DNA of 64,000 nt, from the IMG/VR virus record IMGVR_UViG_3300030451_006341, positions 32,001 to 96,000 of that record; one strand, written 5' to 3'. Below, one piece after another: positions 40,219-62,287 of this stretch. The stretch is from a virus. Both the position numbers and the translations under genes were made by a program. The notes under the pieces were generated by a model. That model was given only the letters and a program-made list of their open reading frames with translations, had not been told where the DNA came from and did no database searches. The stretch's first letter is position 1; every line of letters starts with the position of its first letter.

Positions 40219-40578
40219 TTAATCTCCTTTGTGAATACGATAGCTATCGCTATCAAAATGTTGTGTAGAAAATTCAAATAATTCAGTATCTTGTAAAGCA
40301 ATCATTTGGTGTCTAAGTCCTCTATAAACATGAAAGTTGTCACCAGCTTCTAAAATAAGTTCTTTTGCTAATTTGATATCGTCAAATTCAGAATATTTTA
40401 CTAAAATTTTACCAGACTGAATATAAAATACTTCGTCTTTTAAAATATGATAATGCCAAGAGCAGCGCTTTCCTTTAACAAAATATAAAAGCTTACCGCA
40501 ATATTCTTCATTGTTGACGATCCATTTTTCAAATCCCCAACCTTTAGGCACGAATTTCATTTTTAAAGAAGTCTCCAT
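40219..40578 (-). CDS. Cupin-fold sugar(-phosphate) isomerase (mannose-6-phosphate isomerase type II / lyxose isomerase-like)
   Basis: KGWGFE..CGKLL..SWHYH..KDEVFY..H cupin metal ligands. Confidence 0.75.
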   Translation of the reverse strand: METSLKMKFVPKGWGFEKWIVNNEEYCGKLLYFVKGKRCSWHYHILKDEVFYIQSGKILVKYSEFDDIKLAKELILEAGDNFHVYRGLRHQMIALQDTELFEFSTQHFDSDSYRIHKGD

Positions 40579-40876
40579 CTTTCATTCCTTTGTCATCAAT
40601 GTATACATCACCCGCGGGCTTACCTAAATGTAAACTATGAAATTTTACTCCCCATTCAATTAATTGTTTTCTAGTAAATTCATAAAATGCGCGATTAGCA
40701 TATCCTGCATTATTATTGCTCCTACCCATACCTCTGGCTGTTAAAAAAACAATTGTATTACCATCGTCATATAACTTATTAATCTTTTCTATTCTATCAA
40801 TATATGGTATGGCAAATCCATAGTTTCCATCAGTCAAACTGCATATTGTCCCATCAATATCAAAAACGTAAGTCAC
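40544..40876 (-). CDS. Small HAD-family phosphatase (capsule-biosynthesis EcbF/BcbF type)
   Basis: FDIDGT, TARG and GKP..YIDDK HAD motifs I-IV. Confidence 0.8.
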   Translation of the reverse strand: MTYVFDIDGTICSLTDGNYGFAIPYIDRIEKINKLYDDGNTIVFLTARGMGRSNNNAGYANRAFYEFTRKQLIEWGVKFHSLHLGKPAGDVYIDDKGMKDGDFFKNEIRA

Positions 40877-41265
40877 TTGTTGTTCTCCAGTATATTTGTA
40901 GTCGAATAATTACCTATTCTATTAAAAAACATTAATTTTTTAGCGTAGTTTTGGCCAACAACTTTTTTACCTTTCCAATCTGAACCAATAACCATTATAT
41001 CAGGATTGTTTAATTTTATTAAATTTTCTAATTGTTCTGTTGAATCAAACAACAAAACTTCATCAACATACTTAATGCTTTCAAGGGCAAATTTTCTATC
41101 TTCTTGATGATTATATGGCCTATTTGGGCCCTTGTCTTTGCTTACTTTAGAGTCTGTGTCTACTCCAACTATAAGCTTATCACCTAAAGATTTAGCATAT
41201 TTTAACATTTCAAAGTGGCCGCGGTGCAAAACATCAAAACAACCATTAGTCCATACCACACTCAT
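40873..41265 (-). CDS. rfaE2: Heptose-1-phosphate nucleotidyltransferase (RfaE/HldE domain II, cytidylyltransferase fold)
   Basis: TNGCFDVLHRGH, KGPNRP, GSDW and YSTT motifs; start moved to ATG 41265 (ATGA overlap). Confidence 0.8.
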   Translation of the reverse strand: MSVVWTNGCFDVLHRGHFEMLKYAKSLGDKLIVGVDTDSKVSKDKGPNRPYNHQEDRKFALESIKYVDEVLLFDSTEQLENLIKLNNPDIMVIGSDWKGKKVVGQNYAKKLMFFNRIGNYSTTNILENNK

Positions 41266-41993
41266 ATTGACGCAACTCCCATTTTTTGAACAACCTTGGT
41301 TGAACAATCATTAGCAAATTTAATTGATAAATCAATATTGTTAGTTTCACAAAACTTATAACACAACGCAGCTACAAATGTGTCGCCTGCTCCAGATGTA
41401 TCTTTTACTTCAACCAAAGGAACATCGTATACTTTATTTTGATATATGCACCCATTTGGTCCTTTAGTAACAATTAGGTTTTTCATTGTTTTGCTAGTCA
41501 AATATTGTTTTGTATTTTCATATTCATAGTGATTAATTTTTATAAAAGTAAATTCAGATGCCCAATCACCTATTATTTTTTTGGTGTCTAAAAAGCTAAT
41601 ACGAGAATGAACTGAAATATGTCTTAAGTCCTCTTTAGATAAAAAGCCTTTATTATAATCTGATACTACTACTGCATCATATAATTTAAAGTTAATTTCT
41701 TGAATATTACAAATACCATATTTGTCATCGTTTTCATCTAATCTCATAAACATGTGATTTGTTCTTCTATCAACAAATCTAGTTTTAGTGATGGACTTCC
41801 AATTATTGTTTGTACATATGTTTGGATTTGCGCCCAAAGACTGTAAATTTGCATATACGTTCATAGCCATCCCGCCGTTTTTAATTAATTTTATAGCATT
41901 AAAAACAGGAACAGGGGCTTCAGGACACAGCCTGTTGCACGTTCCATAGTGGAAGATATCATTACAACTTTCTCCGATAACCAAAATCTTCAT
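41262..41993 (-). CDS. rfaE1: PfkB-family heptose-7-phosphate kinase (RfaE/HldE domain I)
   Basis: RLCPEAPVPV, GGMAMNV, SDYNKG and DTSGAGDTF motifs. Confidence 0.85.
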   Translation of the reverse strand: MKILVIGESCNDIFHYGTCNRLCPEAPVPVFNAIKLIKNGGMAMNVYANLQSLGANPNICTNNNWKSITKTRFVDRRTNHMFMRLDENDDKYGICNIQEINFKLYDAVVVSDYNKGFLSKEDLRHISVHSRISFLDTKKIIGDWASEFTFIKINHYEYENTKQYLTSKTMKNLIVTKGPNGCIYQNKVYDVPLVEVKDTSGAGDTFVAALCYKFCETNNIDLSIKFANDCSTKVVQKMGVASI

Positions 41994-44490: not shown

Positions 44491-45249
44491 TTACTCCACT
44501 ATAAAATAAGATACTCTAGAAGCGTAAGGGAAACGCTTCAATGTTATATTTTCTAAACCAAAAACATCCATTAGTGCCAAAGTTTCTCCTGGTGAATCTG
44601 GATCATTCAACTCATCAAAACCAACTACGCTACCCTTAGTTAATCTTGGCTTAATTGCCTCTAAGCATTCTTTAGTTGGTTTATATAAATCAAAATCAAA
44701 GTATGCAAGGGAGACAATAGTTTCTGGGTTATCATTTAAATATTCATGAATTGTTTTTGTAGCGTCACCTTTACGTAATTCAAATTTTTTAATATGTGAC
44801 AATGGATTATCGCTTTCAATATTACCAACAATCTTGGATAAATATTGATCGTAATTTTCAGTGAGAGCTAATTCGCCTTCGACCATCATCGGTGAGTGGC
44901 CATCTTCTTCTGTGATTTCAGGAAACCCTTCAAACGTATCGAACGCTACTAGTTTTTTGTGCCTATTGAATGGCTCATATATACCACGTAACGCAGCAAA
45001 CAATGCCATATTTTGGCCCCATCTAGTTCCAAACTCCATTACTACACCATGAACATCAATTTGTTTTTGATAAATGTGGTTCATAAATAAAATTCTAGAA
45101 AGATTTTTAGAATTCAAAAACAAACCTAAATTAGATAAAACTTGCTCATGCGGAATAGGACAGTCTTGAAGAAGATCGTACATTTCGTTTCTAGCGGTTC
45201 TCTCTAAATTGTTGTCATACGTTAATATTTTTGTATTTTCGTCAGCCAT
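44491..45249 (-). CDS. TylF/MycF/NovP-family sugar O-methyltransferase
   Basis: MEFGTRWG, FDTFEGFP, YFDFDLY and GSVVGFDE motifs; start moved to ATG 45249. Confidence 0.8.
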   Translation of the reverse strand: MADENTKILTYDNNLERTARNEMYDLLQDCPIPHEQVLSNLGLFLNSKNLSRILFMNHIYQKQIDVHGVVMEFGTRWGQNMALFAALRGIYEPFNRHKKLVAFDTFEGFPEITEEDGHSPMMVEGELALTENYDQYLSKIVGNIESDNPLSHIKKFELRKGDATKTIHEYLNDNPETIVSLAYFDFDLYKPTKECLEAIKPRLTKGSVVGFDELNDPDSPGETLALMDVFGLENITLKRFPYASRVSYFIVE

Positions 45250-45260
45250 AATATATTCCT

Positions 45261-46364
45261 TTATTTTTGCCAAACTAATGCTGGTATTTTTTTGTCCCAA
45301 CCAAAGGCTATAACCCAAGCCCAAAATCTTAGTCTTCCTTCAATGAGATCAAATTGTTGATTGTTTACTTCTTTAAGTCTGATGGGCTTTAGAAATATTC
45401 CTTGTTTCATTTCTTCAGATAATTCTACAGGAGAGGGTGTCATATTCATTTTGTTTTCAATTGCCTCTTCCACTGTTTGGTATACTTTTCGATTATAGTC
45501 ATTAGACACTCTAATTTGTTTTGTATCAATATTTTTTACAGGAGTTACAAATTTTTCAGACATCAAATTAAGATCATCTTTTGTTACTTTTAAATTTGCA
45601 GCTTCTGCGTTTTGTCTAGCGCGCAATGGCTTTGATGTATTCGGTATTACCATAACATTTGGGTTGTTGATTAACCATCTTAACACTAATTGGCCAGTAG
45701 TGCAATTATATTTTTTTGACAGTTGTGTTAGAATTTTAAGCTGCTCAGTACCATTAACCATTTTTCCTTGTGCTAATGGGCTATATGCTATTAATTTTAC
45801 ATCATTTTTTTTGCAAAAAGGTAGCACATTTTTTTCTATGGAGCGTTCAAAAAAATTATATTCTACCTGTAAAGTACTAAGGCTATTATTTTTTAGTGAT
45901 AGTATAGCATTCTCAGTTTCATTTATCAAAAAGTTACTAACTCCAATTTGTTTAATTTTACCATCTAAAACTAATTTTTCCATCGCTTCCATTGTTTCGC
46001 TAATAGGAACATTTGGGTTAGGCCAGTGGACCTGGAATAAATCAATTACATCGGTCTGTAGTCTTTTTAGGCTTTGTTCAGCAGATTTTATTACGCCATT
46101 AAATGTAGTATCATTTGGCGAAACCTTTGTTGCTAAATAAACATTGTGCCTGCCTATTCGTTTTAAAATTTGACCTAAAGCAGCCTCAGATGCACCATTA
46201 CCATAAACTGGTGCTGTATCTATAAAATTAATGCCACTATCAAGAGATACTTTTATTGTCTCTTCTAAGCTATTGCCACTTTCATTTTCGGGCAAATGAA
46301 ATCCTGTGCCAAAACCAATAGCAGATATTGGTGTGTCATCATTATTTATTTTACGATATATCAT
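45261..46364 (-). CDS. Aldo-keto reductase fused to a C-terminal ParB/Sulfiredoxin-like domain
   Basis: AKR tetrad IDTAPVYG / ATK / QVHWP; C-terminus ELSEEMKQG..KPIRL..FDLIEGRLRFWA..IPALV. Confidence 0.8.
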   Translation of the reverse strand: MIYRKINNDDTPISAIGFGTGFHLPENESGNSLEETIKVSLDSGINFIDTAPVYGNGASEAALGQILKRIGRHNVYLATKVSPNDTTFNGVIKSAEQSLKRLQTDVIDLFQVHWPNPNVPISETMEAMEKLVLDGKIKQIGVSNFLINETENAILSLKNNSLSTLQVEYNFFERSIEKNVLPFCKKNDVKLIAYSPLAQGKMVNGTEQLKILTQLSKKYNCTTGQLVLRWLINNPNVMVIPNTSKPLRARQNAEAANLKVTKDDLNLMSEKFVTPVKNIDTKQIRVSNDYNRKVYQTVEEAIENKMNMTPSPVELSEEMKQGIFLKPIRLKEVNNQQFDLIEGRLRFWAWVIAFGWDKKIPALVWQK

Positions 46365-47448
46365 TGAAAACAAAAGCCTCTATTTTTTTTCTATTGCAAA
46401 TTTTCCAAGCCCAATACTTTTTAATCTCAGAAAAATAATAATCATCTAAAATTTTATATTTACCATTTTTAAAAACAGTTCTTAATGGTGGTAGTTCGAA
46501 ATTGTTTTTTAATCTTTCTGCTAAAAGCTGTGGGCTAGGAATTAAATCGTCTTTGTTGTCTATTGCTTGTTTGAAAGTAATGTAGCAACGCTCGTCAATT
46601 AATACGTCGTCAATATTTATTAAATTTTTTTTTGTACCAAACGATTGTTCTAACGTGCGACAATCATTAACCGATAAGTTTATTTTTGTAGACTTTAAAT
46701 TTTGTGCTAAGTGATCGTCATTCATTGTTCTAATAATGGAAACTACATTTTTTTGTAAAACCCAAGCTAGCATTAACTGATGGATTGTGCAATTGTGTTT
46801 TGTTGTTAGTGATAAAATTTCAGGACTAAATTTTATTTTTTTACCTTGCAAAAAAGGACTATACGCTAAAAACAAATGATTGTTTTTATTGCAAAACGGT
46901 ATGACTTTTTTAAGAGATTCTTTTTGTAACAAATTAAATTCGTTTTCTACAACAAAAAAATCATTTTTGTTTTTTTTATCAAACTCGTTAATCTCTGAGA
47001 ACACTGCATTGCCTATTCCATATGCTTTTATTTTACCTTGTTTTTTGAACTCTTTTAAGGATTCTATTAATTCTTGCACAGGAATTTCAGGATTACGCCA
47101 ATGAGATAAGTAAAAATCTATGTAATCAGTATTTAATCTTTTTAAACTGTTATTTAAAGATGCTTGTAAATCTTTTTTGTGTGAATTTCTAGCATTAAAC
47201 TTTGAACATATTATAGCCTGTTCTCGCCTGTTTCGTAGTGCTATACCCAATATTTCTTCAGAATAGCCACCACCGTAAAGCTCAGCTGTATCAAACATGT
47301 TAATGCCCATATCCATAGCTTTATGGTAAAAGTAAATTCTTTTATTTACCGTATCCTCGGTATTACTGTGCTTATTGCCTGTTTTATTAACACCTAATGC
47401 TATTTGTGAGACTTTTTTATCTAAATTTTTTAAATAGATATAATCCAT
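46351..47448 (-). CDS. Aldo-keto reductase with a degenerate ParB/Srx-like C-terminal domain
   Basis: FDTAELYG / CSK / LSHW tetrad; C-terminus PSPQLLAERLK..PPLR..YKILD..YWAW..IEAFV. Confidence 0.75.
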   Translation of the reverse strand: MDYIYLKNLDKKVSQIALGVNKTGNKHSNTEDTVNKRIYFYHKAMDMGINMFDTAELYGGGYSEEILGIALRNRREQAIICSKFNARNSHKKDLQASLNNSLKRLNTDYIDFYLSHWRNPEIPVQELIESLKEFKKQGKIKAYGIGNAVFSEINEFDKKNKNDFFVVENEFNLLQKESLKKVIPFCNKNNHLFLAYSPFLQGKKIKFSPEILSLTTKHNCTIHQLMLAWVLQKNVVSIIRTMNDDHLAQNLKSTKINLSVNDCRTLEQSFGTKKNLINIDDVLIDERCYITFKQAIDNKDDLIPSPQLLAERLKNNFELPPLRTVFKNGKYKILDDYYFSEIKKYWAWKICNRKKIEAFVFNDIS

Positions 47449-47853
47449 TTAAATACTTGGCTCCCATCCTTTTAAACCATCAGTATCAAAATTGCTCCTA
47501 ACTAAGCTTTTTTCTTTATCACCAAATTCTTCTAATAAAATATTTTTCATTCTATTACGAACACCATTAATTTGGTGAGCTAATTTTAGTAATTCATCGT
47601 ATCTTTCTTCATCATCTTGCATTTTGTCTTTAATATACCATATATGTACATTAATTTGCGACAAAACCATTAATACTCTTAATAGTCTTGAGTTTAAAAC
47701 TATTTTTTTATCTTGTATTAACATATCAATATCATGTGACAGTTTATCTATTTCTTCAGTAATGCTTTTGTTGTCATCAAAAAGCATCTCTTTTATTTGA
47801 TCTACAGCCAATCTATCTATTAGTTCAGCAGCAGGCAATACAAATTTTCTCAT
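47449..47853 (-). CDS. All-helical protein, DUF6165/DUF4254-like; paralog of 52723-53136
   Basis: ELIDRL..QIKE..HDID..QINVHIW..HQINGVRN. Confidence 0.6.
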   Translation of the reverse strand: MRKFVLPAAELIDRLAVDQIKEMLFDDNKSITEEIDKLSHDIDMLIQDKKIVLNSRLLRVLMVLSQINVHIWYIKDKMQDDEERYDELLKLAHQINGVRNRMKNILLEEFGDKEKSLVRSNFDTDGLKGWEPSI

Positions 47854-48830: not shown

Positions 48831-48837
48831 AATTTCC

Positions 48838-51108: not shown

Positions 51109-51116
51109 TTTTTCTC

Positions 51117-53136: not shown

Positions 53137-53904
53137 TTAAATTTTTTCCTGATTATTAAAGTTGTTAATAAAGTCACTTAGGTTATTAATTTCTAGTTCT
53201 TTCATTGCTTTTCCTTTAGTGCCGTGATATGGATGTTCATCTCTTGGTAAAGCTTCTTGTTGTTCTCTTTCTTTTAAATGCTCATAATATGTTTCATCTT
53301 TGTCCATTTGGCCCCATTCAGCGTGCAAGTGTTTGATTTGTATTTTTTCAGTAAAAATAAATCTGTTACCATGACCACGATGCATTAAGCCTTTCATAAC
53401 ATCAGTAAGCCAATAATCGCCCCAATCACCATTAAAAATTGGCGCTAATAGATAGCCTGCTGCAGTTCTCCAGTTTTTGTGAACAAATGGAAATCCTGTA
53501 CTTTGGTTTGCTCCGCCAGATGTTTGCAATAAAATAATTTTGTCTGGATAAGTTTCATTAAATATCTCTAAAACTATCTTGTCCCAATCTTTTGAATTAT
53601 GCACTGCGTCGTCAGACATAATGTTAAATATTTCACCCTTAGCAGGTTTTGAGCACTGATTAATTAAATCAGAAAAAATAAACTTTTTTCTTGGCCAGAC
53701 AGTGTATTCGATATTATAAGTTGAAAACTCTTGTTGTAATTTTTTAGCCATCTCAATTGATTCGGTATCGTCGTCATCGATACCATATATAAGTTCTATG
53801 TGTTCTGGCTCGGCACATGTTTCAAAACATCTTTCTGCTACTCTTCTCATAAGTTGCATTCTTTTTCTAGTAGGACATAATACACTAATTTTAATATTAC
53901 TCAT
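53137..53904 (-). CDS. GT2-like (GT-A fold) glycosyltransferase
   Basis: ISVLCPTRKR, IDDDD, MSDDA..WD and IKHLH motifs. Confidence 0.7.
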   Translation of the reverse strand: MSNIKISVLCPTRKRMQLMRRVAERCFETCAEPEHIELIYGIDDDDTESIEMAKKLQQEFSTYNIEYTVWPRKKFIFSDLINQCSKPAKGEIFNIMSDDAVHNSKDWDKIVLEIFNETYPDKIILLQTSGGANQSTGFPFVHKNWRTAAGYLLAPIFNGDWGDYWLTDVMKGLMHRGHGNRFIFTEKIQIKHLHAEWGQMDKDETYYEHLKEREQQEALPRDEHPYHGTKGKAMKELEINNLSDFINNFNNQEKI

Positions 53905-55694
53905 TATTTCTCCAAATTATTTAAGAAATTCATTACACTGTCCATAATTTGATCCTCATTAGTTTGTTTGAATCTTTTGGCAATTTCATAATTGTTTTTA
54001 ACAGCGTTTATTCTATCATAATAATCTTTATCAGTCAAGTTAGATAATATATTATCTAATTCTTCTATGGTGTTAAAACAAATTATACCGTCTTTGTCAA
54101 AAAAATCACCAATGTTTGGGCAGCCTCTGAAAATAGGTATTGTGCCAAGTGCAAAACAATCAACTATGCCATCAGTAAAAAAGTTATCTTGTATTGTATT
54201 GTGTATTGTAATAGAAAAATAATAATCTTTTAACGCATCTGTTTTATTTTCAAATCTATTATTGAAAGCACCACCAAATAAATCAAATTTATATTTTGAA
54301 TGTAGTTTTTCGGCAACAGTAAACCTAAATCTATGGCCTTCCATCATTTTTTTGTTGGCTGCTATCAAAGACACTAATTTAGTTTTTTTGTGAATACCCC
54401 AATCTTCGTGAGCTACTCGACATTCTGCTTGTTGAATATGCATACAATTTGAATATTTATTTATCAATTCTTTATCGTGAGTTACAACTAAATCAAATTC
54501 AGAAGCATGTTCATAAGCTGCTCTATATGGATTTGGTTTTAATTCTTTAGGTTCGAGCAACCATGCTACTTTATATTTACTGTTAACTGCTCTAACAAGA
54601 TTAATGTTGGCAGCATAATCATCAACAAAAAATGTTACACCGTTATAGTTCATTTTGTTTTGAATAAATTCAACTTTTTGAGGTTTACCCCACATATCAA
54701 CACCAGTGGCTGTTATATATCCCCACAATTGTTTTGTGTGTGAAAACGTATTATCAAACAGATTGACTATCTCTTTGTCGGTTTTGTAAATATGATTATA
54801 TTCATTCCAATTTGTTGGGGAAGCTTCGTGTTCTGGCATTTTGCTTGGATGAAAATCAAATCCACCTAGCTCATCAAATAAAGGTACAGGGCCATTCCAT
54901 TGACCCCATTGTAATTTATTTTTGTCAACAAGCTTATTATCTATTAACTCTTTAATTGTTATAACATCTAAGCCAAGTATATTAATTTTATCTTCATGGT
55001 ATCTTGATATTGCGCCCTTATGTACCCATTTAGTAGGAAAATTAAGATAACTTGGATCTGCAATAGCAATAATTCTTTTATCTAATTGTGCAGACTTTAC
55101 AGTGCCTTGCACTTCAAAATCCCAAGGGCTCCAATCATTGTTTAAAAACTCTAATAAATACTCTTTTTCCCATATTGATGGCTGAGTAGAAATTCTATAG
55201 GGAGCGTTTTCTGGTATTTGCAAAAGCACAAAGTCGTTGCTTTTCTTTAAAACTTTATAACTTCTGTTTTTTGCAGCTGTATTGTTTCTGTCAAAAATAT
55301 TTATATAAGAATCCCAAGTTATATCGCATCTTCCAACATTGTGTGTTTTTGTAAATTCAAACAACATGTTTAAGGTTTGTAAATTTGGTTTTTGTGTTGG
55401 AAAAAAATCCTCTAATGAAAAAATCACATATTCATCTTCAATAGTTTTAAAATAATTGTAAAGATATCTTGTCCATTTTTTAGCACCACCTTCTTGTTTT
55501 TCTGCCAAAGACACAAATGTGAAATTTTCTGGCAGTTCAAACTCTGGGTGCATAAAACCAAGGATGACTACTTTTTGTTCTGAGCCCCAGAATTTTTTAA
55601 ATAAGTGAAAATAAATTTTTAGTATCCACAAGTTTTTATCACATATTGGAATAAAAATTGTTGGAATTTTAGTAGAAGTGCTCATATTATTCAT
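53904..55694 (-). CDS. Two-domain glycosyltransferase: N-terminal GT-A-like plus C-terminal GT10-like
   Basis: N-domain LEDFF..QPSIW..SPWDFE; C-domain KTDALKDYYFSITIHN..FFTDGIVDCFALGTIPIFRGCPNI. Confidence 0.65.
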   Translation of the reverse strand: MNNMSTSTKIPTIFIPICDKNLWILKIYFHLFKKFWGSEQKVVILGFMHPEFELPENFTFVSLAEKQEGGAKKWTRYLYNYFKTIEDEYVIFSLEDFFPTQKPNLQTLNMLFEFTKTHNVGRCDITWDSYINIFDRNNTAAKNRSYKVLKKSNDFVLLQIPENAPYRISTQPSIWEKEYLLEFLNNDWSPWDFEVQGTVKSAQLDKRIIAIADPSYLNFPTKWVHKGAISRYHEDKINILGLDVITIKELIDNKLVDKNKLQWGQWNGPVPLFDELGGFDFHPSKMPEHEASPTNWNEYNHIYKTDKEIVNLFDNTFSHTKQLWGYITATGVDMWGKPQKVEFIQNKMNYNGVTFFVDDYAANINLVRAVNSKYKVAWLLEPKELKPNPYRAAYEHASEFDLVVTHDKELINKYSNCMHIQQAECRVAHEDWGIHKKTKLVSLIAANKKMMEGHRFRFTVAEKLHSKYKFDLFGGAFNNRFENKTDALKDYYFSITIHNTIQDNFFTDGIVDCFALGTIPIFRGCPNIGDFFDKDGIICFNTIEELDNILSNLTDKDYYDRINAVKNNYEIAKRFKQTNEDQIMDSVMNFLNNLEK

Positions 55695-57279
55695 TTTTTT
55701 CTAGCAATATACCTTCATCACAAAAGTACAAATAATCTATATCTGTTTTTAAAAAGCACTTAATCGCATCTTCAGGTGTTTCAACAATTGGTTCTCTATC
55801 ATTAAAGCTAGTATTTAACAAAATTGGCACTTGTGTCATGTCTTTCCACTGTTTAAGAAAACCGTGAAACCATTTATTGTCTGTTTCTCTAACTGTTTGC
55901 AAGCGACCTGAACCATCATGATGTACGACAGCAGGAACTTTGTCAATTACTTCGGGTTTGAACTTAATTACAAATCCCATGTACGGACTTTCAATATCTC
56001 TAACAAACCAATTAGTTACGTCTTCTCTTAAAATAGCTGGAGCAAAGGGCCTATACCACTGGCGATGTTTAACTTTTTCATTTATAAGATCTTTCATTAG
56101 CGGAGACCTTGGATCAGCTAAAATACTTCTATTGCCAAGCGCCCTACGGCCAGATTCAGAGCCTCCAGAAAATACAGAAACAATTTTTTGATCATTTAAT
56201 TTAACTAAAACACCTGTATCATCAGTATCATGTGCAGTTACTTTATCATTAAAATTTTCTATGGCTGATAAAATTGCTTGACGGTCGTATAATTCTCCAA
56301 GATATGGAGATGCGTTTTTGTCCCATGTTATTCTAGGATTATCCAACTCTTGATGCCATACCCACTGAGCAGAACCAATTGCTAAACCAGCATCATATGG
56401 CACTGGACACATGTAAATATCTTCGTATATGTCTTTAAACCAATCAAACATTTTACCTGACATCACTGAATTTAATACCACACCGCCCGCTAAACAAAGA
56501 TTTTTTGATGGATATTGCTTAGCATACTTTAATATAATTGAGCGTACAATATCTTCAGTTACTTTTTGCATAGCCGCGGCAATATTAAACCTTTGTTCTT
56601 CTGACTCGCTGGCTAATTTTTGAAGTCTAGCAAAATCAAAATTTGTGTGCTGTATGTTACCCCCGTACGTTTTGAAATATTCATAATGCTCAGATGGATC
56701 TCCCATAACAGCCATAGCCATTACAGAGCCTGCTTGGTTTCCTTTTGGGTACCCTCCTGATAGTCCAAATATGTTTGTTGTGCACAGTTGCCACATAACA
56801 CCCAGATTTAATTTTTCTATAGGAATAATCATTATTGGTTTAATTTTGTTACCCTCACCTTTCCAAATAGTGAAAGTGGTGATTACAACATTACCATTTT
56901 TATCATAATCTCTACCACCACCATCAATAGTTACGATAAGTGCTTCATCAAAATTACTAGAAAAGAATGCATTTGCAGCATGAGATTCATGGTGTCCTGG
57001 TTCATAAAAAATTCCTGAATTTTGTTTTACAATACTTTGCATTTTATTGTAAGTTTCAGGATACCTATTTCTGATCCCACCGTTCCAATTATCAACACAA
57101 TGTGTAAAATGTTTAATTTCGTTATATTCAGCATACGTATCAAATAAAAACTCTAGTGAGTCGCCTAAAGGCTCTTTGACTCTCAGATATCTTTCAAGTT
57201 CTGCATGAATAGTTGGTACACCATTATCAAGTATTGCAAACGAGCAGTCGTGGCCCGAGCAAAGTCCTGCTATTTTCAT
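55687..57279 (-). CDS. O-carbamoyltransferase, NodU/CmcH/TobZ family
   Basis: GHDCS, ELERYLRVK, HHESHAA, IDGGG, AGGVVLN, GRRALGNRS, KHRQWYRPFAP and LNTSFN motifs. Confidence 0.9.
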   Translation of the reverse strand: MKIAGLCSGHDCSFAILDNGVPTIHAELERYLRVKEPLGDSLEFLFDTYAEYNEIKHFTHCVDNWNGGIRNRYPETYNKMQSIVKQNSGIFYEPGHHESHAANAFFSSNFDEALIVTIDGGGRDYDKNGNVVITTFTIWKGEGNKIKPIMIIPIEKLNLGVMWQLCTTNIFGLSGGYPKGNQAGSVMAMAVMGDPSEHYEYFKTYGGNIQHTNFDFARLQKLASESEEQRFNIAAAMQKVTEDIVRSIILKYAKQYPSKNLCLAGGVVLNSVMSGKMFDWFKDIYEDIYMCPVPYDAGLAIGSAQWVWHQELDNPRITWDKNASPYLGELYDRQAILSAIENFNDKVTAHDTDDTGVLVKLNDQKIVSVFSGGSESGRRALGNRSILADPRSPLMKDLINEKVKHRQWYRPFAPAILREDVTNWFVRDIESPYMGFVIKFKPEVIDKVPAVVHHDGSGRLQTVRETDNKWFHGFLKQWKDMTQVPILLNTSFNDREPIVETPEDAIKCFLKTDIDYLYFCDEGILLEKNE

Positions 57280-57280: not shown

Positions 57281-58138
57281 TTAAATAACCTCCATTATTT
57301 CTTCAATAGAAAAATTTTCAACTTCATTAGATGCGGGCCCTTCTTCAAGAATTTTTTCATGTAAGTTTTCTCCTGGTTGTAGCCCAATATGCTTAACATT
57401 CAATGTTTTATTTTTTGGTAAATATTTTTTAGCCATTGCCTGTAAAAGATCTCCCATCTTCATAGATTTCATCTCAGGAACCCAAGGTTGACAACTATCT
57501 GCTTCTTGCAAACAAGAAAAGATAAGCTCTACCGCTTGATCACGAGTCCAAAAAAATCTTGTAGCATCTGCATCTGTAATAATAATTTGCTTTCCTTCAA
57601 GCAAAAGCTCTTTCCATTTACACAATACAGAGCCAGTTGAATATAAAACATTTCCATATCTTACAATTCTATATTTTGTATCAGGTTTTAATTTTTCATA
57701 TTGAAGAAATAGTCGCTCCATTAATAACTTGGTTGCCCCATAAACCCCACTTACTTGCGCGGCTTTATCAGTGCTAATACCAATTACAAAATCTAATTCG
57801 TTTATCAAAGATTCTTCTAATATATTTAAGCTTCCAATAACGTTTGTTTTAGTACACTCACGTGTAAAGGTTTCAGCTAAACCCACATGTTTTGATGCTG
57901 CTAAATGAAAGACAGCATTAACATTTTGCATTGCTTGTTTAATTTCAAATGCATCACAAACATCGCCAGTATAAATTTCTATACTTGGATGTTTTTGTTT
58001 TAAAGTAATTAACTTTCCTTCATTTCTACAAAATGCACGGACTCGACCACCTTGGTCTAGAATTTTTGCAGTTAACTGTTCTCCCAAAAACCCACTGGCA
58101 CCTGTGATAAGGTAAAGCTTATTTTCTTCTATAATCAT
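57281..58138 (-). CDS. UDP-N-acetylglucosamine 4,6-dehydratase-like (PseB/CapD, Polysacc_synt_2)
   Basis: TGASGFLG, AASKHV, STDKA, YGATK, RYGNV..STGSV and GENLHE motifs. Confidence 0.85.
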   Translation of the reverse strand: MIIEENKLYLITGASGFLGEQLTAKILDQGGRVRAFCRNEGKLITLKQKHPSIEIYTGDVCDAFEIKQAMQNVNAVFHLAASKHVGLAETFTRECTKTNVIGSLNILEESLINELDFVIGISTDKAAQVSGVYGATKLLMERLFLQYEKLKPDTKYRIVRYGNVLYSTGSVLCKWKELLLEGKQIIITDADATRFFWTRDQAVELIFSCLQEADSCQPWVPEMKSMKMGDLLQAMAKKYLPKNKTLNVKHIGLQPGENLHEKILEEGPASNEVENFSIEEIMEVI

Positions 58139-58890
58139 TATAATTTCTCCAGTCGATCATATCTTTTTAAAGAGCGAATATGTCTTTCATATTTTAATTG
58201 TAAATCTCTTTTATCTTTATGTTCATTTAATTCATTTAAATCATTCCAAATGTACAATATGTCTTTAACAAAATGAGCTTTTTCTCGACTCATTTCCAAA
58301 AGCGGATACATTAAACCTAAATCACCTGCAGCCTTAAAGTAACTGCCATCATCTATTATTATATCATCTTTATTGATTTTTTGCAACAATCCCATTTTAT
58401 AACTTCGTAAGTGCGAAGTGCACCATTTGTAGTCTCTGTAAAGATTATTTTCAATAACTTCAGGTGGAACAGGGCTTGAAAATTTACCTACTTGTTTGTT
58501 GGATAAATTAATGTAGCTACCGTATGTCATCCAACAATCAAATTTATTATAGTGGTCATTAAGAATTGAAAGAGTTTTTTTGCTATAAAAGAAATCATCC
58601 CCATCTAATATAACTATAATAGTATTTTTATCTAAATCATTGTTATGAATTGTAGCTGCTTCATATGCATTTCCTAATGGTCCTAAATTTTTAGCGTTTT
58701 TAACTATAGTAAATCTATCGTCATTGCCTACTAGTTTATTACATATTTCATACGAATTATCAGTTGAGGCGTCATCTGCTACCACGCAAGTAAAATTATT
58801 ATAGTCTTGAAGCATTACACTTTTAATACTTTTATCTACCCATTTAGAGGCATTATAAAAAGGCATAACAACCACAAACTTATTGTTCAT
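58138..58890 (-). CDS. GT2-family glycosyltransferase
   Basis: VVMPFYN, DDASTD and LDGDD motifs. Confidence 0.85.
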   Translation of the reverse strand: MNNKFVVVMPFYNASKWVDKSIKSVMLQDYNNFTCVVADDASTDNSYEICNKLVGNDDRFTIVKNAKNLGPLGNAYEAATIHNNDLDKNTIIVILDGDDFFYSKKTLSILNDHYNKFDCWMTYGSYINLSNKQVGKFSSPVPPEVIENNLYRDYKWCTSHLRSYKMGLLQKINKDDIIIDDGSYFKAAGDLGLMYPLLEMSREKAHFVKDILYIWNDLNELNEHKDKRDLQLKYERHIRSLKRYDRLEKL

Positions 58891-59728
58891 TTATTAGCTC
58901 CACAATTTTTTTAATTGTTTTTTCTTTGTTTTTTTTCATATAATCAATCAACTCATTTCCTTGTAGTGATATCCATTTTTCATGACATGCCCCTACATTT
59001 TTGTTTGTTATGGTGCTTACATTAAGCATGCGTGCTTCAACAACAACTCTAGATAATGTTTCAGGCGTTTTTGGTAAAAACATAAATTTTTTGTTTTTAC
59101 TTAATTGGCTTAAAAAATCAGTGTAAACATTTGATGATATTAATTCATATTCTAATTTTTTTTTCTCACAATAAAAAACACATTCTTTTGTATTTTTGTG
59201 CCAAGTGGTTGAATTTAAAATCGATATTTTATCTTTTTTAATTGTACTATCAGCTGCAAGTTTTGAAATAATATCTAAAGATTCATCAGACCACAAATTA
59301 CCAGAAACATTATAAACATTATTAATGCTTAAATTTTTTTCGATTATGTTTTTGTGAAACGAACTTTGACAAAATACAGATTTTGCTTTTTTATAAAATT
59401 CTTTGTGAACTATATGATGCTCAGGGGCTTTAAAATTTTTATAGGCTGCTGGGTTTCTGTTTTTAAGATACTTGTGGTCGTGTTCATAAATAATATATTT
59501 GCAATTTTGTGTTATGTACTCAAGCACGTTATAATTTAAGTTTACAAAATTAGAAATTATAATAAAATCATTTTTTTTGCAATCATAAATTGTTACAGTG
59601 TGAGATCTTTTTTTATTTATAGTATATTTTTTTTTAAATAATTGATTGCACAATTCAGCATCATTTAATTCACCGCCACCTATTATGTCAACGTCTAACA
59701 GATCAGCTATATACAATACGTTATTCAT
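58880..59728 (-). CDS. GT-B fold glycosyltransferase (GT4-like, short)
   Basis: GGGELND, YEHDHKY and PETLSRVVVEARML motifs. Confidence 0.65.
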   Translation of the reverse strand: MNNVLYIADLLDVDIIGGGELNDAELCNQLFKKKYTINKKRSHTVTIYDCKKNDFIIISNFVNLNYNVLEYITQNCKYIIYEHDHKYLKNRNPAAYKNFKAPEHHIVHKEFYKKAKSVFCQSSFHKNIIEKNLSINNVYNVSGNLWSDESLDIISKLAADSTIKKDKISILNSTTWHKNTKECVFYCEKKKLEYELISSNVYTDFLSQLSKNKKFMFLPKTPETLSRVVVEARMLNVSTITNKNVGACHEKWISLQGNELIDYMKKNKEKTIKKIVELINEQ

Positions 59729-61004
59729 TTATAATAAATTCATCAGAAAGTTCGTTTAACCATTCGTCAACGTCTTCTATAGGGCATGCATTATTATGTT
59801 GCCAACTTGTCCACGCCTCATCAAAAATTTGTACAAATTCTGCATGCATTTTTTCAGAAGCAAACCTTTCGGTAATTCCATCTACTAAAATTCTGTTTTC
59901 GTAGTTTTCATAAACCTCTCTCATCATTTTTTTAGCAGAATGCTCTCGTGGCACAGCCCACATACTGTCAGCAGTGATTACCCCTTGCCAAACTGAATCT
60001 TCTGGGACTTGTCTCATATCAAATGATATGGGGTAAAATTTATTTTTACCATTTTCATCAACAAGAAAATCAAGCTGGCCAGACCAAGCTGTTGCAATCA
60101 CAGGTAAACCACTATATGCTGCCTCAAACATGGTAAGTCCAAACCCTTCTCCATATGTTGTAGTTACAAAACAATGAATTTTTTCATGCTTGTACAGAGC
60201 ATGCATTTCTTTATCGGTCATATCGCCATGTAATAAATAAATTTTACATTTTACATCATCAAAAGAATCAACTATTTCTTTTACTCTAGCTTGTGCTACT
60301 CTTCTATCTAATAAACAGTTTTTTGATACGTTAGTCTTTACGACAAGTCCAACATTTTTGTCATCTTTAAATTCTTCAATGAACCACTTAATTGTAGAAT
60401 GGATATTTTTTCTTGTTGACCATTGATTGGTGCAAATAAAATTAAAACTAGTTTCTAAATCTAATTGTATATTTGGCAATTCATTAAAGGTTTTAACTGG
60501 ATAATTAATATATTTTATAATACCTTGGCCGACTTTGTGCACAAACTCTTCGCCTTGAACACCGTTAGTCTGTCTAGCTGCTCTATACTCGCTGTTTTCC
60601 ATCACACGTTGAGAATGTGAAGAAATAGTCATTACGCGATCCATGGAATTAATTTTTTCAATCCATTCGGGCGCCATTTTACTAGTTTCAATACCTGCAG
60701 TATATCCTACATTAATTGGGGCCATAGGCTCAAATTCCAAAGGAATAGTTACTTGTAGCGACATATCAAATTGACCACCTTGTTGAACATATGCAATAGT
60801 TGCTTCAATTCTTTCATCAATCCATTTTCTTTCTTCATCGTGCTCGCGAGACCAAGAAGTCACGCCCCATGTTATAGGCATTATATATATATCATAGAGA
60901 TCTTCTCTAGTTCTCAAAGAACGCAATGCATATCTTGCTTGTTCTCCGTATCCTGATTGTGTTAACAAAGGGCCTTTTAAAATTACTTTTCTTTTATTAC
61001 TCAT
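59721..61004 (-). CDS. GT4-family glycosyltransferase
   Basis: SGYGEQAR, RKN and GEGFGLTMFEAAYSGLPVIAT.WSG..DF motifs; start moved to 61004. Confidence 0.85.
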   Translation of the reverse strand: MSNKRKVILKGPLLTQSGYGEQARYALRSLRTREDLYDIYIMPITWGVTSWSREHDEERKWIDERIEATIAYVQQGGQFDMSLQVTIPLEFEPMAPINVGYTAGIETSKMAPEWIEKINSMDRVMTISSHSQRVMENSEYRAARQTNGVQGEEFVHKVGQGIIKYINYPVKTFNELPNIQLDLETSFNFICTNQWSTRKNIHSTIKWFIEEFKDDKNVGLVVKTNVSKNCLLDRRVAQARVKEIVDSFDDVKCKIYLLHGDMTDKEMHALYKHEKIHCFVTTTYGEGFGLTMFEAAYSGLPVIATAWSGQLDFLVDENGKNKFYPISFDMRQVPEDSVWQGVITADSMWAVPREHSAKKMMREVYENYENRILVDGITERFASEKMHAEFVQIFDEAWTSWQHNNACPIEDVDEWLNELSDEFIINE

Positions 61005-62287
61005 TTGATCTCCATTAATTGCCAACGTTTATAATCAGTTCTTTCTTCCCAAGACCCGTATTTTTCTATTGTCTGATCTATTTTGTCTACCCAGGCCTGT
61101 TCGTAATCTTCAAAATTATAGTTGGTTCTCACATGTTCAGCTCCAGATTTAGACATATTTTCATACTGTTTTTTACTACACTTCAAAGCTTTAGTTAATA
61201 CTTTATTAAAATCATTTTGACTAATTCTGTCCTCATAGATATAAGGAACCTGTAACGAGCCAATAACAGATTTACTGGCTGGTTGAATGCCCCAACCAAA
61301 CCATTGTTTACCATTAGTAACTTGTTCCTGTAGTCCACCTGTCATATTAACAATAATTGGGGTTCCACATGATAAAGATTCAAGCGTTGCCAACCCAAAG
61401 CCTTCTGCATCTGAAATATTGATAGTGTAGTCGGCAGCATTGTAGAATAATGCTAACTGTTCAGGTGACACTTTGTTAGATGAAATTAACACTTGACCTT
61501 TATCTACTCCTAAAGTTTCAATAATATATGGCAAATCTTGTCCATGCTGGTCACGAGGATCAGTATGCATCAATAATGTAGCTGCATCGTGGCCCACTTC
61601 ATCAAGCCATTCTTTAAACCACCAAATTAGTGTACCAGATTGTTTTCTTCTTGCATTTCTATTGTTCCAAAAAAAGATTTTTTTATTTGGATTTTTACAT
61701 TCTTCTTTAGATGAATCTAATATTTGTGAACGTAAATCAATAACTTTTTGTTTGTTTTCTGAATTTTTTAAATTTTTAAATATTTCACCATTTACTGCAT
61801 GAGGTAAGTAGCACGAAGATGTATCTGGTGCTATCTCTTGTAGTATTTTATGAGTGACTTTTGAAATACATACAACTTCATCAGTTGATTCATAATATGG
61901 TTTATTAAACGTTGGCGCAGGAAAGTTATCCCACACATGATAGTAAACCATTGGCACATTAGGACGAACTTCATTTTCAATTTCCCAAAGCCAGCCATAG
62001 AATCTTGGATCGGTCATAAACCATAGGAGATCTGGTTTTTCTTTTGCGAGAACTGAGCGTACTATAGCATCATTACCATAGCCATCAACTGGATGAATTA
62101 TCCAATCATCTGCCCATGGTTCTACTTTTACAGGATCATAATTATGATGTTTCATAGCACCGCCTAAGCAAATAAATTGATATCTACCAGTTTTTAAAAG
62201 TGCCTCGATCATGTATTTTGTTTGAGTTCCAACTCCCGAGGGAGAAAGTGGGTGGTCTGATAAGACCAAAATTTTCTTTTTTGTCAT
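61001..62287 (-). CDS. GT4-family glycosyltransferase
   Basis: SGVGTQ, NRNARRK and EGFGLATLESLSCGTPII..TGG motifs; start moved to 62287. Confidence 0.85.
   Translation of the reverse strand: MTKKKILVLSDHPLSPSGVGTQTKYMIEALLKTGRYQFICLGGAMKHHNYDPVKVEPWADDWIIHPVDGYGNDAIVRSVLAKEKPDLLWFMTDPRFYGWLWEIENEVRPNVPMVYYHVWDNFPAPTFNKPYYESTDEVVCISKVTHKILQEIAPDTSSCYLPHAVNGEIFKNLKNSENKQKVIDLRSQILDSSKEECKNPNKKIFFWNNRNARRKQSGTLIWWFKEWLDEVGHDAATLLMHTDPRDQHGQDLPYIIETLGVDKGQVLISSNKVSPEQLALFYNAADYTINISDAEGFGLATLESLSCGTPIIVNMTGGLQEQVTNGKQWFGWGIQPASKSVIGSLQVPYIYEDRISQNDFNKVLTKALKCSKKQYENMSKSGAEHVRTNYNFEDYEQAWVDKIDQTIEKYGSWEERTDYKRWQLMEIK

What the first reader, a model, noticed from the sequence alone, without database searches (positions are those of the whole stretch)
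40219..62287. Candidate phage-encoded glycosylation system: 26-gene, all-soluble pathway for an unusual heptose or branched sugar
Seen: 26 consecutive, largely translationally coupled genes (TAATG/ATGA overlaps). They cover sugar activation (cupin, HAD, kinase, nucleotidyltransferase), two 4,6-dehydratases, an epimerase, three SDR reductases, two AKRs, two ThDP enzymes, a methyltransferase, a carbamoyltransferase and 6 GT genes (7 GT domains). No Wzx/Wzy, ABC exporter, undecaprenyl-phosphate priming transferase or multi-pass membrane protein is present. Established: bacterial surface-glycan loci normally need such membrane components, and some phages are known to glycosylate their virions or their DNA. 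Inference: the acceptor is cytoplasmic, most plausibly the virion proteins encoded immediately downstream, decorated with a methylated or carbamoylated deoxy-heptose or branched glycan. A pathway this complex would be unusual for a phage.
Basis: partly seen in the sequence, partly recalled or inferred. Interest (0 to 1): 0.88.

Follow-up and report, generated by a model that had tools for sequence, protein, structure and literature searches.

The report
Swappable sugar-building island in marine phage
An uncultured ocean phage carries 26 soluble enzymes that build rare sugars, including a 6-deoxy-heptose, and join them into a chain; such islands are already known in large marine phages, but here three transferases inherited with the phage's own core genes point to the phage's tail fibres as the likely target, which is still unproven.

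Summary
Window 40219-62332 (minus strand) has 26 tightly coupled genes. They encode nucleotide-sugar enzymes and six glycosyltransferase genes with seven GT domains. None has a membrane-spanning segment.

The contig is a real phage fragment, not a chimera. All 74 of 76 related viral contigs that extend past the flanking nuclease gene hold a sugar island in the same slot.

The size is not unusual. P-SSM2, SynMITS9220M01, S-SCSM2R and pelagimyophages carry 22-26-gene islands, and the cyanophage cluster I scanned is also all-soluble.

New here: the first two transferases (GT4a, GT4b) are clade-core genes. They are syntenic in cultured phages of Microcystis, Flavobacterium and Rhodothermus. The compact GT-B and the cargo behind them vary, and the cargo is exchanged horizontally.

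Four complete relatives lack a thymidylate-synthase-type hydroxymethylase, which argues against DNA glycosylation.

The tripeptide [ST]-G-S is 3.8-7.6 times over-represented in proteins encoded after gp6 in this phage, Mel-JY01 and immuto. It is not over-represented in T4 or GAP32.

Best reading (about 0.5): the phage glycosylates its own distal tail proteins. Host-surface modification remains a serious rival. No chemistry exists.

The scan has flagged look-alike islands in 95 other genomes.

The parts
63075..63103 (-). Sigma-70-like promoter candidate (TTGACG-17-TATAAT, 11 of 12) in the only sizeable gap upstream of the nuclease gene and island
   Evidence: consensus match only, and the overall promoter count does not exceed shuffles
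62295..63056 (-). PD-(D/E)XK nuclease; conserved upstream border of the island
   Evidence: Pfam PF12705 E 1e-13; 67-91% identical in 76 IMG/VR loci; syntenic in Mel-JY01 and immuto
61001..62287 (-). GT4a: retaining GT4 (GT-B) transferase, clade-core anchor gene. The likely start is 62287 (428 aa); the ORF extends to 62332
   Evidence: Pfam; 65-74% identity in relatives; invariant EX7E motif; homologues in Mel-JY01, immuto, LR756508 and RM378; more than 7,700 90%-identity clusters
59721..61025 (-). GT4b: second conserved GT4 transferase
   Evidence: Pfam; about 50% identity in 69 of 76 loci; EX7E conserved; syntenic in the isolates
58880..59728 (-). Compact GT-B glycosyltransferase (282 aa), third and semi-conserved anchor gene
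   Evidence: no Pfam or PHROG hit; AF2 pLDDT 95.7; Foldseek probability 1.00 to BshA, T4 AGT, Gtf3 and PglA; 25-52% identity in most relatives
58138..58890 (-). GT2 (GT-A) glycosyltransferase
   Evidence: PF00535 E 2e-20
57281..58138 (-). PseB/FlaA1/CapD-type UDP-HexNAc 4,6-dehydratase (short form, 285 aa)
   Evidence: PF02719 E 3e-63; PDB 2gn4 E 4e-45
55687..57279 (-). NodU/CmcH-type O-carbamoyltransferase
   Evidence: PF16861 E 3e-60 and PF02543; homologues in 136 phage records, mostly cyanophage records, also Pelagibacter phages
53904..55694 (-). Two-domain transferase: N-terminal GT-A plus C-terminal GT10-like (fucosyltransferase-type) GT-B
   Evidence: PF00852; AF2 pLDDT 91.7; VIA Z 16.5 to FUT9 (residues 307-596) and Z 14.0 to B4GALNT1 (residues 7-228)
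53137..53904 (-). GT2 (GT-A) glycosyltransferase
   Evidence: PF00535 E 5e-6
52723..53136 (-). 137-aa protein of unknown function; paralogue of the 134-aa protein at 47449-47853
   Evidence: no firm family; 69-86% identical where present; atlas neighbours are viral, with DUF6165/DUF4254 as leads only
51763..52722 (-). Extended SDR, GDP-fucose-synthase-like reductase/epimerase
50575..51758 (-). Split E1-like ThDP enzyme: alpha (213 aa) and beta (Pyr domain only, 185 aa)
   Evidence: PF00676 and PF02779; NCBIfam; PDB E1-alpha E 5e-8; the cassette recurs in 13 relatives
48838..50578 (-). Two-subunit transketolase (N and C halves)
   Evidence: PF00456 E 6e-43; PF02779 and PF02780; NCBIfam transketolase
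47850..48881 (-). Extended SDR, GDP-fucose-synthase-like
47449..47853 (-). 134-aa protein of unknown function (paralogue of the 137-aa protein)
   Evidence: tblastn cross-hits of 32-37%
45261..47448 (-). Two aldo-keto reductases (365 and 370 aa), each with a C-terminal extension of about 90 aa
   Evidence: PF00248 E 5e-54 and 2e-62, covering residues 16-273 only
44491..45324 (-). TylF/Methyltransf_24-like methyltransferase
   Evidence: weak, E 2e-5; 74% identical in L082 and L083
41990..44488 (-). 6-deoxy-heptose module: heptose 4,6-dehydratase (41990-43018), RmlC-type 3,5-epimerase (42993-43502) and GFS-like C4 reductase (43502-44488)
   Evidence: PDB 7us5 E 2e-117; 8db5 and 8dco E 4e-30; GFS E 8e-36
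40219..41993 (-). Sugar-activation cassette: short PfkB kinase, HldE-domain-II-like nucleotidyltransferase, EcbF/BcbF-type mini-HAD phosphatase and cupin
   Evidence: the cassette recurs in L034, L076 and L082. In cyanophage SynMITS9220M01 the cupin is 66%, the HAD 38% and the dehydratase 53% identical
38454..40301 (-). Conserved downstream border: 95-aa and 110-aa proteins with one N-terminal hydrophobic helix each, a Zn-ribbon protein, a basic 266-aa protein and a 99-aa protein
   Evidence: conserved in L027, L074, G1 and G3
15012..27269 (-). Candidate acceptors: 507-aa and 3566-aa proteins encoded directly after gp6, with [ST]-G-S at 9 observed vs 1.1 expected and 18 vs 4.3
   Evidence: orthologues in G1 and G3 show the same excess
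2..2227 (-). Further candidate acceptors: 358-aa protein (6 vs 1.0) and the edge ORF (470 aa in the contig, 4 vs 0.7)

Best explanation
This is a phage-encoded, export-free glycan factory in a fixed genome slot between a PD-(D/E)XK nuclease gene and the baseplate module. It is probably transcribed early from a host-type promoter. Soluble enzymes make at least two activated sugars. One is a 6-deoxy-heptose: kinase, phosphatase and nucleotidyltransferase, then 4,6-dehydratase, 3,5-epimerase and 4-reductase. The other is a 2-acetamido-2,6-dideoxy-hexose made through a PseB-like dehydratase. Methylation, carbamoylation and ThDP/AKR chemistry of unknown order may tailor them. Seven GT domains assemble an oligosaccharide. 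The vertically inherited GT4a and GT4b, followed by the variable compact GT-B, start the chain on an acceptor that belongs to the phage itself. That acceptor is most likely Ser/Thr in [ST]-G-S motifs of the distal baseplate and fibre proteins. The horizontally exchanged cargo genes decide what the outer sugars are, which gives related phages different glycan 'serotypes'. Shown here: gene content, folds, synteny, phyletic pattern and motif statistics. Inferred: the order of steps, the nucleotide carrier, the acceptor and any benefit.
For: The cluster content is real. There is no multi-pass membrane protein among the 26 genes, nor among 589 island ORFs of 76 relatives. The multi-hydrophobic ORFs of two complete relatives match no exporter or priming-transferase family. 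GT4a (65-74% identity) follows the nuclease gene in all 74 loci that extend past it and GT4b (about 50%) follows it in all 72 that reach that far, while only 2 of 142 island protein clusters occur in 60 or more loci. Gene-content Jaccard is 0.07 in the island against 0.37 in the upstream flank. GT4a occurs in the phage collection only in Mel-JY01, immuto, LR756508 and RM378 at 27-33%, apart from weak 23% hits. These are the same phages, in nearly the same rank order, as the portal and gp6 hits. PDDEXK-GT4a-GT4b synteny holds in Mel-JY01 and immuto, and GT4a-GT4b in RM378. Their hosts are Cyanobacteria, Bacteroidota and Rhodothermota. Both GT4 proteins keep the EX7E motif and are acidic, with pI 5.8 and 5.1. 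A sister lineage has GT4a at 37% identity but cargo at 40-77%, so the cargo moves horizontally. Among proteins chosen by position after gp6, [ST]-G-S is 3.8x over expectation here (41 vs 10.8, p 2e-12), 7.6x in Mel-JY01 and 4.6x in immuto. It is 0.8x in T4 and 1.3x in GAP32. Permuted orders without a central G are about 1x. Island and other proteins are about 1x.
Against: No glycan has been measured on any virion of this clade. The motif excess is correlative and could be a structural feature of related beta-rich fibre folds. The positive phages share ancestry, so they are not independent. Soluble GT2 and GT4 enzymes routinely act on undecaprenyl-linked acceptors, and the host could supply priming and export. 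The window's contig is incomplete (CheckV 38%). The island sits in the early/replication neighbourhood, not among late genes. The published reading of similar islands is host O-antigen modification. The hydrophobicity scan is crude.
Confidence: 0.5

Rival explanations
1. Host-envelope remodelling. The soluble enzymes build a new O-antigen-like or core glycan on the host's lipid carrier. The host's own priming transferase, flippase or ABC exporter and ligase display it. This blocks superinfection or stops progeny adsorbing to debris.
For: This is the standard reading for P-SSM2-type and pelagimyophage islands. The enzyme families are those of O-antigen and capsule loci. The island is hypervariable like O-antigen loci. 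It is probably expressed early. Two small membrane-anchored proteins border it.
Against: GT4a and GT4b are inherited with the virion core across phages whose hosts belong to three phyla with different envelopes. No priming or export gene occurs in any of 76 islands or in two complete genomes. The first two transferases are acidic, which is unusual for enzymes working on anionic membranes (weak evidence). This reading does not explain the [ST]-G-S excess on fibre proteins.
Confidence: 0.25
2. DNA hypermodification. The transferases decorate modified bases of the phage genome with a complex glycan to evade restriction.
For: The island lies beside nuclease and replication genes in all relatives. 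The compact GT-B matches T4 alpha-glucosyltransferase among many GT-B folds. Phage DNA glycans of more than one sugar are reported (cited within).
Against: Four complete relatives (187-196 kb, CheckV 100%) have no thymidylate-synthase-family hydroxymethylase, so the usual hydroxymethyl acceptor is missing. The TET/JBP search was uninformative because its control rang nowhere. GT4a and GT4b are acidic. Seven GT domains and about 18 sugar-tailoring genes far exceed any known DNA-glycosylation system.
Confidence: 0.07
3. The product is a free glycoconjugate or sugar-derived metabolite, or the acceptor is a non-virion protein, for example the small membrane-anchored proteins at the island border.
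For: Carbamoyltransferase, AKR and ThDP enzymes also occur in secondary-metabolite sugar pathways. Iyer et al. predicted a sugar-derived metabolite for another cyanophage cluster. The border proteins are conserved at 51-76%.
Against: Seven GT domains argue for an oligosaccharide on a macromolecule. Nothing specific points to a small-molecule aglycone.
Confidence: 0.1
4. Non-functional 'stuffer' DNA or a chimeric assembly with a bacterial LPS locus.
For: Sullivan et al. 2010 raised the stuffer idea for cyanophage LPS clusters.
Against: All 26 frames are intact and tightly coupled. Catalytic motifs are invariant. GC is uniform, 0.29-0.36 in the island against 0.31-0.39 elsewhere. Phage genes flank the island on both sides, and the same slot is filled in every one of the 76 related loci that reaches past the nuclease (74) and in two complete genomes.
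Confidence: 0.03

Closest known systems
'LPS' or cell-wall-synthesis gene clusters of large marine myophages: P-SSM2 (24 genes), S-SM2, S-SSM7, SynMITS9220M01, S-SCSM1, S-SCSM2R and pelagimyophage host-recognition clusters (PMC1079782, PMC3037559, PMC7824862, PMC12801897, PMC7029224)
   Same: These are lytic marine myophages with 20-26 contiguous soluble sugar-nucleotide and GT genes, including cupin, PfkB kinase, HIGH nucleotidyltransferase and carbamoyltransferase. The clusters are polymorphic between relatives and their function is untested. Cassettes are directly shared: dehydratase 53%, cupin 66%, HAD 38% and carbamoyltransferase 31% identical to SynMITS9220M01.
   Different: The phage lineage differs: no psbA, and the portal is only 39% identical to Mel-JY01 and immuto. 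The slot is fixed between a nuclease gene and the baseplate module. The island is anchored by GT4a and GT4b, which are clade-core genes. It also holds E1-like and transketolase ThDP enzymes and AKRs with C-terminal extensions.
Mycobacteriophage virion glycosylation (Che8, Corndog, Myrna; Freeman et al. 2023, as cited)
   Same: Phage-encoded soluble GTs act in the cytoplasm on the phage's own structural proteins. This is the mechanism proposed here.
   Different: Those systems have a few GT or methyltransferase genes and use host sugars. Their targets are the C-termini of capsid and tail-tube proteins, and the chemistry is demonstrated. Here there are 26 genes with their own sugar pathways, the putative targets are fibre proteins, and nothing is demonstrated.
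Campylobacter jejuni capsular 6-deoxy-heptose pathway (4,6-dehydratase 7us5; 3,5-epimerases 8db5, 8dco and 7m14; GFS-like reductases)
   Same: The dehydratase is a close relative (E 2e-117), and the epimerase and reductase belong to the same families.
   Different: Activation uses HldE-type (ADP-heptose-type) kinase and transferase halves, a mini-HAD and a cupin, not GmhA, HddA, GmhB and HddC. No SIS isomerase was found. The nucleotide carrier is unknown.
Clade-specific fibril-glycosylation gene clusters of giant viruses (Megavirinae) and chlorovirus capsid glycosylation (own knowledge, not checked here)
   Same: These use virus-encoded rare-sugar pathways and GTs, work without membrane export, decorate external virion fibres, and differ in cluster content between clades.
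   Different: They are eukaryotic viruses with no shown homology of the systems, beyond a weak GT4a hit to chlorovirus B736L (E 1e-6).
T4 alpha/beta-glucosyltransferases (DNA glucosylation)
   Same: They are phage GT-B enzymes encoded among early genes.
   Different: No hydroxymethylase was found in complete relatives, and the sugar machinery here is far larger.

Membership tests
Marine-myophage 'LPS/CWSM' sugar islands (P-SSM2 type) | At least 10 contiguous nucleotide-sugar and GT genes inside a lytic tailed-phage genome | tested here: met
   26 genes; portal, TerL, gp25 and gp6 lie on the same contig
Marine-myophage 'LPS/CWSM' sugar islands (P-SSM2 type) | Content is polymorphic between related phages | tested here: met
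   142 protein clusters in 76 loci, of which 93 occur in 2 loci or fewer; Jaccard 0.07
Marine-myophage 'LPS/CWSM' sugar islands (P-SSM2 type) | Homologous cassettes shared with cyanophage clusters | tested here: met
   53%, 66%, 38% and 31% identity to SynMITS9220M01 genes; 306 nt at 73.8% identity
Marine-myophage 'LPS/CWSM' sugar islands (P-SSM2 type) | Carrier is a Kyanoviridae or pelagimyophage T4-like phage | tested here: not met
   No psbA in 4 complete relatives; the nearest isolates are Mel-JY01, immuto and RM378
Bacterial O-antigen/capsule locus (Wzx/Wzy or ABC type) | Membrane priming phosphoglycosyl transferase | tested here: not met
   No Bac_transf or Glycos_transf_4 hit and no TM protein
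Bacterial O-antigen/capsule locus (Wzx/Wzy or ABC type) | Flippase and polymerase, or an ABC exporter | tested here: not met
   None in the island, in 589 island ORFs of relatives, or recognisable in two complete relatives. The host could supply them.
Phage virion glycosylation (mycobacteriophage type) | Phage-encoded GTs | tested here: met
   Seven GT domains
Phage virion glycosylation (mycobacteriophage type) | Glycan covalently bound to virion proteins | not testable with these tools
   Only a candidate sequon excess is available
C. jejuni-type 6-deoxy-heptose pathway | Heptose-specific 4,6-dehydratase, 3,5-epimerase and C4 reductase | tested here: met
   7us5 E 2e-117; 8db5 E 4e-30; GFS-like E 8e-36. 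This is sequence-level evidence; substrates were not assayed.
C. jejuni-type 6-deoxy-heptose pathway | GDP-alpha-heptose supply by GmhA, HddA, GmhB and HddC | tested here: not met
   HldE-type halves, a mini-HAD and a cupin are present instead; all are below NCBIfam equivalog cut-offs
T4-type DNA glycosylation | Hydroxymethyl-pyrimidine synthesis (ThyA-family hydroxymethylase) or TET/JBP | tested here: not met
   PF00303 is absent from 4 complete relatives while the controls rang. The TET/JBP search was inconclusive. The window's own contig is incomplete.

The most novel reading that the evidence does not exclude
A vertically inherited protein O-glycosylation system defines a whole phage clade: RM378, immuto, Mel-JY01 and an abundant uncultured ocean lineage. 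GT4a and GT4b prime [ST]-G-[ST] sequons on distal tail and fibre proteins. A horizontally swappable cargo island then diversifies the outer glycan, so virions of one of the ocean's common phage groups carry O-antigen-like 'serotypes'.
Probability: 0.4. Interest if true: 0.8.

Novelty: new member of a known kind. Interest (0 to 1): 0.55.

Why it matters
What the large sugar islands of marine phages do has been open since P-SSM2 in 2005. They are usually assumed to remodel the host surface. Here the first two transferases are clade-core genes shared with three cultured phages: Flavobacterium phage immuto, Microcystis phage Mel-JY01 and Rhodothermus phage RM378. A candidate sequon also marks specific fibre proteins. 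Together these turn the question into a direct bench test of virion glycoproteomics against host LPS profiling. If virions are glycosylated with strain-specific rare sugars, that would bear on phage adsorption, decay, grazing and recognition in the ocean. It would also change how 'LPS auxiliary metabolic genes' are annotated in viromes.

Tried and rejected
- Megablast of the island against 50,697 phage records gave only a 306-nt hit.
- PHROGs and Pfam named almost none of the structural proteins, so the capsid and sheath are unassigned and I could not test capsid C-termini.
- Pfam on the few multi-hydrophobic ORFs of two complete relatives gave nothing. One 869-aa protein is probably a tape measure; this is a guess.
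- The TET/JBP family search is uninformative because its control rang nowhere.
- PDB sequence hits of GT4a (sucrose-phosphate-synthase-like, chlorovirus B736L, BshA) and GT4b (GtfA-type O-GlcNAc transferase, E 0.003) are too weak to assign an acceptor.
- The fold matches of the 282-aa GT-B include both DNA-modifying and protein-modifying enzymes, so they do not discriminate.
- A literature search for Mel-JY01 found nothing, and the one for RM378 plus glycosyltransferase found nothing relevant.
- The 'moraphage' paper concerns another lineage.
- Host identity is unresolved: no psbA, and the tmRNA tag gave no assignment.
- I did not run the complex predictor. I do not claim that GT4a and GT4b bind, and enzyme-substrate pairs are poor targets.
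- I did not use sequencing-run or read tools, because expression alone would not identify the acceptor.
- Chimera and stuffer-DNA readings were considered and rejected.

Full report
**Observation.**
All genes of the window lie on the minus strand. From 62332 (more likely 62287, giving the 428 aa seen in homologues) down to 40219 there are 26 ORFs. Every junction is an overlap or a gap of at most 4 nt.

No NCBIfam equivalog cut-off is reached, so the names are family-level.

Two items needed structure prediction:
- The 282-aa ORF without any family hit is a compact GT-B transferase (pLDDT 95.7; Foldseek probability 1.00 to several GT4 and GT-B enzymes).
- The 596-aa protein has an N-terminal GT-A domain and a C-terminal GT10-like GT-B domain.

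No protein has a 19-residue window with Kyte-Doolittle hydropathy of 1.6 or more; the maximum is 1.48. The two small proteins just downstream (40014-40301 and 39435-39767) each have one N-terminal hydrophobic helix.

**Context.**
The window is part of a 114-kb IMG/VR viral contig. The contig carries:
- a T4-type portal and large terminase, an Mre11-Rad50 fusion and a PhoH-PIN protein;
- gp25, a gp6-like wedge protein, a tail-lysozyme-like protein and giant fibre-like ORFs.

GC content is even across the island and its flanks. The nearest cultured phages are distant. For gp6, Microcystis phage Mel-JY01 is 32% and Flavobacterium phage immuto 30% identical. For the portal, both are 39%, the huge phage LR756508 37% and Rhodothermus phage RM378 33%. 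Four complete relatives of 187-196 kb lack psbA, so this is not a typical cyanomyovirus. The host is unknown.

**Comparative anatomy.**
The flanking PD-(D/E)XK nuclease recovers 76 related viral loci at 67-91% identity.
- In all 74 loci that extend past it, the nuclease gene is followed by GT4a at 65-74% identity.
- GT4b follows it, at about 50%, in all 72 that reach that far.
- The compact GT-B usually follows at 25-52%.
- After that the gene content differs from phage to phage.

Among 589 ORFs in the first 10 kb or less of these islands there are 142 protein clusters. Only GT4a and GT4b occur in 60 or more loci, and 93 clusters occur in one or two loci. Mean pairwise Jaccard of gene content is 0.07 in the island against 0.37 in the upstream flank.

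The pooled island proteins are sugar enzymes: epimerases and dehydratases, GT1, GT2 and GT11, DegT aminotransferases, NeuB, CMP-sugar synthetases and C- and O-methyltransferases. None of the 589 has three or more hydrophobic segments.

Where both borders are seen, island sizes are 7.9, 9.8, 16.8, 18.0 and, in this window, 22.1 kb.

A sister lineage (L082, L083) has GT4a at only 37% identity but cargo genes at 40-77%. The cargo therefore moves horizontally while the anchor is inherited. GT4a relatives form more than 7,700 90%-identity clusters in marine metagenomes, including Tara, so the lineage is abundant.

**Deep conservation.**
In 50,697 phage records, GT4a matches at 27-33% only Mel-JY01, immuto, LR756508 and RM378, apart from weak 23% hits. 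This is the same set as the portal and gp6 hits, in nearly the same rank order.
- PDDEXK-GT4a-GT4b synteny holds in Mel-JY01 and immuto, each followed by its own different sugar genes.
- RM378 has GT4a-GT4b with no adjacent cargo genes.

The hosts are a cyanobacterium, a flavobacterium and Rhodothermus. A transferase pair kept with the virion core across such host jumps is more easily explained by an acceptor that the phage brings along than by a host-specific surface glycan. This is an inference. Both proteins keep the GT4 EX7E motif and are acidic, with pI 5.8 and 5.1.

**Which sugars.**
- The GMD-like enzyme matches the C. jejuni GDP-D-glycero-D-manno-heptose 4,6-dehydratase 7us5 at E 2e-117, against 4e-47 for the best GDP-mannose 4,6-dehydratase, 1db3.
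- The best hits of the RmlC-like enzyme are the C. jejuni heptose 3,5- and 3-epimerases.
- The next gene is GDP-fucose-synthase-like.

A 6-deoxy-heptose branch is therefore well supported.

Its supply side is non-canonical: a short PfkB kinase, an HldE-domain-II-like nucleotidyltransferase, an EcbF/BcbF-type mini-HAD and a cupin. No SIS isomerase was found. Whether the carrier is ADP or GDP is open. The split transketolase could supply sedoheptulose-7-phosphate and the cupin could replace GmhA; both are guesses.

A PseB/FlaA1-like dehydratase (2gn4, E 4e-45) indicates a second branch, a 2-acetamido-2,6-dideoxy-hexose. I cannot place the E1-like pair, the two AKRs, the two remaining SDRs, the methyltransferase or the carbamoyltransferase in order.

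**The acceptor.**

*DNA.* Four complete relatives lack any thymidylate-synthase-family enzyme, while the controls rang. The TET/JBP search was uninformative.

*Host envelope.* There is no priming transferase or exporter in the island, in relatives' islands, or recognisably in two complete genomes. This argument is weak. The host may supply them, and the cyanophage SynMITS9220M01 cluster is equally all-soluble.

*Virion.* I followed a companion note on [ST]-[GAS]-S and sharpened the motif to [ST]-G-S. Sets were chosen by position, taking every protein encoded after gp6:

| Phage | Observed vs expected | Ratio |
|---|---|---|
| This window | 41 vs 10.8 (Poisson p 2e-12) | 3.8x |
| Mel-JY01 | 45 vs 6 | 7.6x |
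| immuto | 61 vs 13 | 4.6x |
| T4 baseplate and fibres | 7 vs 8 | 0.8x |
| GAP32 | 15 vs 12 | 1.3x |

- Permutations without a central G are about 1x.
- The island proteins and other non-structural proteins are about 1x.
- gp6 and the portal carry none.
- RM378 shows a weaker excess of 2.3x over all ORFs of 200 aa or more.

In the window the excess sits in the 507-aa and 3566-aa proteins after gp6, the 358-aa protein and the edge ORF. The pattern fits a sequon, but it could also be a fold feature shared by related fibre proteins.

**Expression.**
The best sigma-70-like site (11 of 12) lies in the gap just upstream of the nuclease gene. No convincing terminator interrupts the run. This suggests early or middle co-transcription, but it rests on a consensus match only.

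**Known or new.**
- Sullivan et al. 2005 and 2010 described 24 'LPS' genes in P-SSM2 and similar clusters in S-SM2 and S-SSM7.
- Iyer et al. 2021 listed the same parts in jumbo cyanophages: cupin isomerases, PfkB kinases, HIGH nucleotidyltransferases, many GT families and carbamoyltransferases. They noted their polymorphism.
- S-SCSM2R has 22 such genes with 13 GTs.
- Pelagimyophages place LPS-type genes in a hypervariable region with the tail fibres.

All of these read the clusters as host-surface modification, and none has tested it. The island here is another member of that kind, in a different and abundant lineage. The clade-core GT pair, the swappable cargo and the clade-specific motif are, as far as I could find, not published. 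They are my inferences from sequence.

The scan itself has met the same island type before: look-alike stretches in 128 windows of 95 genomes. Follow-ups reached similar conclusions. These are not independent evidence.

**Caveats.**
- The hydropathy scan is crude.
- The window's contig is incomplete.
- The motif controls are few and not phylogenetically independent.
- Enzyme names are below equivalog thresholds.
- No experiment exists for any phage of the clade.

Noticed in passing
L005:6304-6634 (contig 102203-102533, outside the window): The phage contig encodes a tmRNA with the tag peptide ANNNNHFEQRLAA, next to tRNA-Thr and two tRNA-Asn genes. The tag might help identify the host.
   Followed up: no
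window 1-27269; L001, L109: [ST]-G-S (also S-G-[ST]) is 4-8 times over-represented in a subset of proteins encoded after gp6 in this phage, Mel-JY01 and immuto. It is not over-represented in T4 or GAP32. The 1656-aa protein (8987-13957) has none.
   Followed up: yes
window 45261-47448: Both aldo-keto reductases carry C-terminal extensions of about 90 aa beyond the Pfam AKR domain. A companion note reads them as ParB/Srx-like. I did not examine them.
   Followed up: no
L082, L083 (IMGVR_UViG_3300001450_009945 and 3300025168_014097): A sister phage lineage has GT4a at only 37% identity but shares the E1-like, transketolase, AKR, methyltransferase, SDR, dehydratase, kinase and cupin cargo at 40-77%. 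This points to cassette exchange between divergent phages.
   Followed up: partly
window 39435-40301: Two small acidic proteins with a single N-terminal hydrophobic helix (95 and 110 aa) always mark the distal island border and are 51-76% identical in relatives. Their function is unknown.
   Followed up: partly
L003:13543-15552: The portal protein is 669 aa, but homologues and the Pfam model cover only about residues 14-478. About 190 C-terminal residues are lineage-specific.
   Followed up: no
L004:4057-7179 and L005:176-1516: There is a 1040-aa Mre11-like phosphoesterase fused to a Rad50/SMC-like ATPase, and a PIN-PhoH fusion protein directly upstream of the window.
   Followed up: no
L111:44986-46137 (RM378 p124): RM378 has only GT4a and GT4b at the conserved slot. 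It is annotated with a UDP-galactopyranose-mutase-like gene about 100 kb away in the record (about 26 kb if the genome is circularly permuted), so it may make one unusual sugar after all.
   Followed up: no
whole contig: CheckV rates this 114-kb contig as 38% complete, implying about 300 kb. Its closest complete relatives are 187-196 kb. The estimate or the lineage assignment may be off.
   Followed up: no
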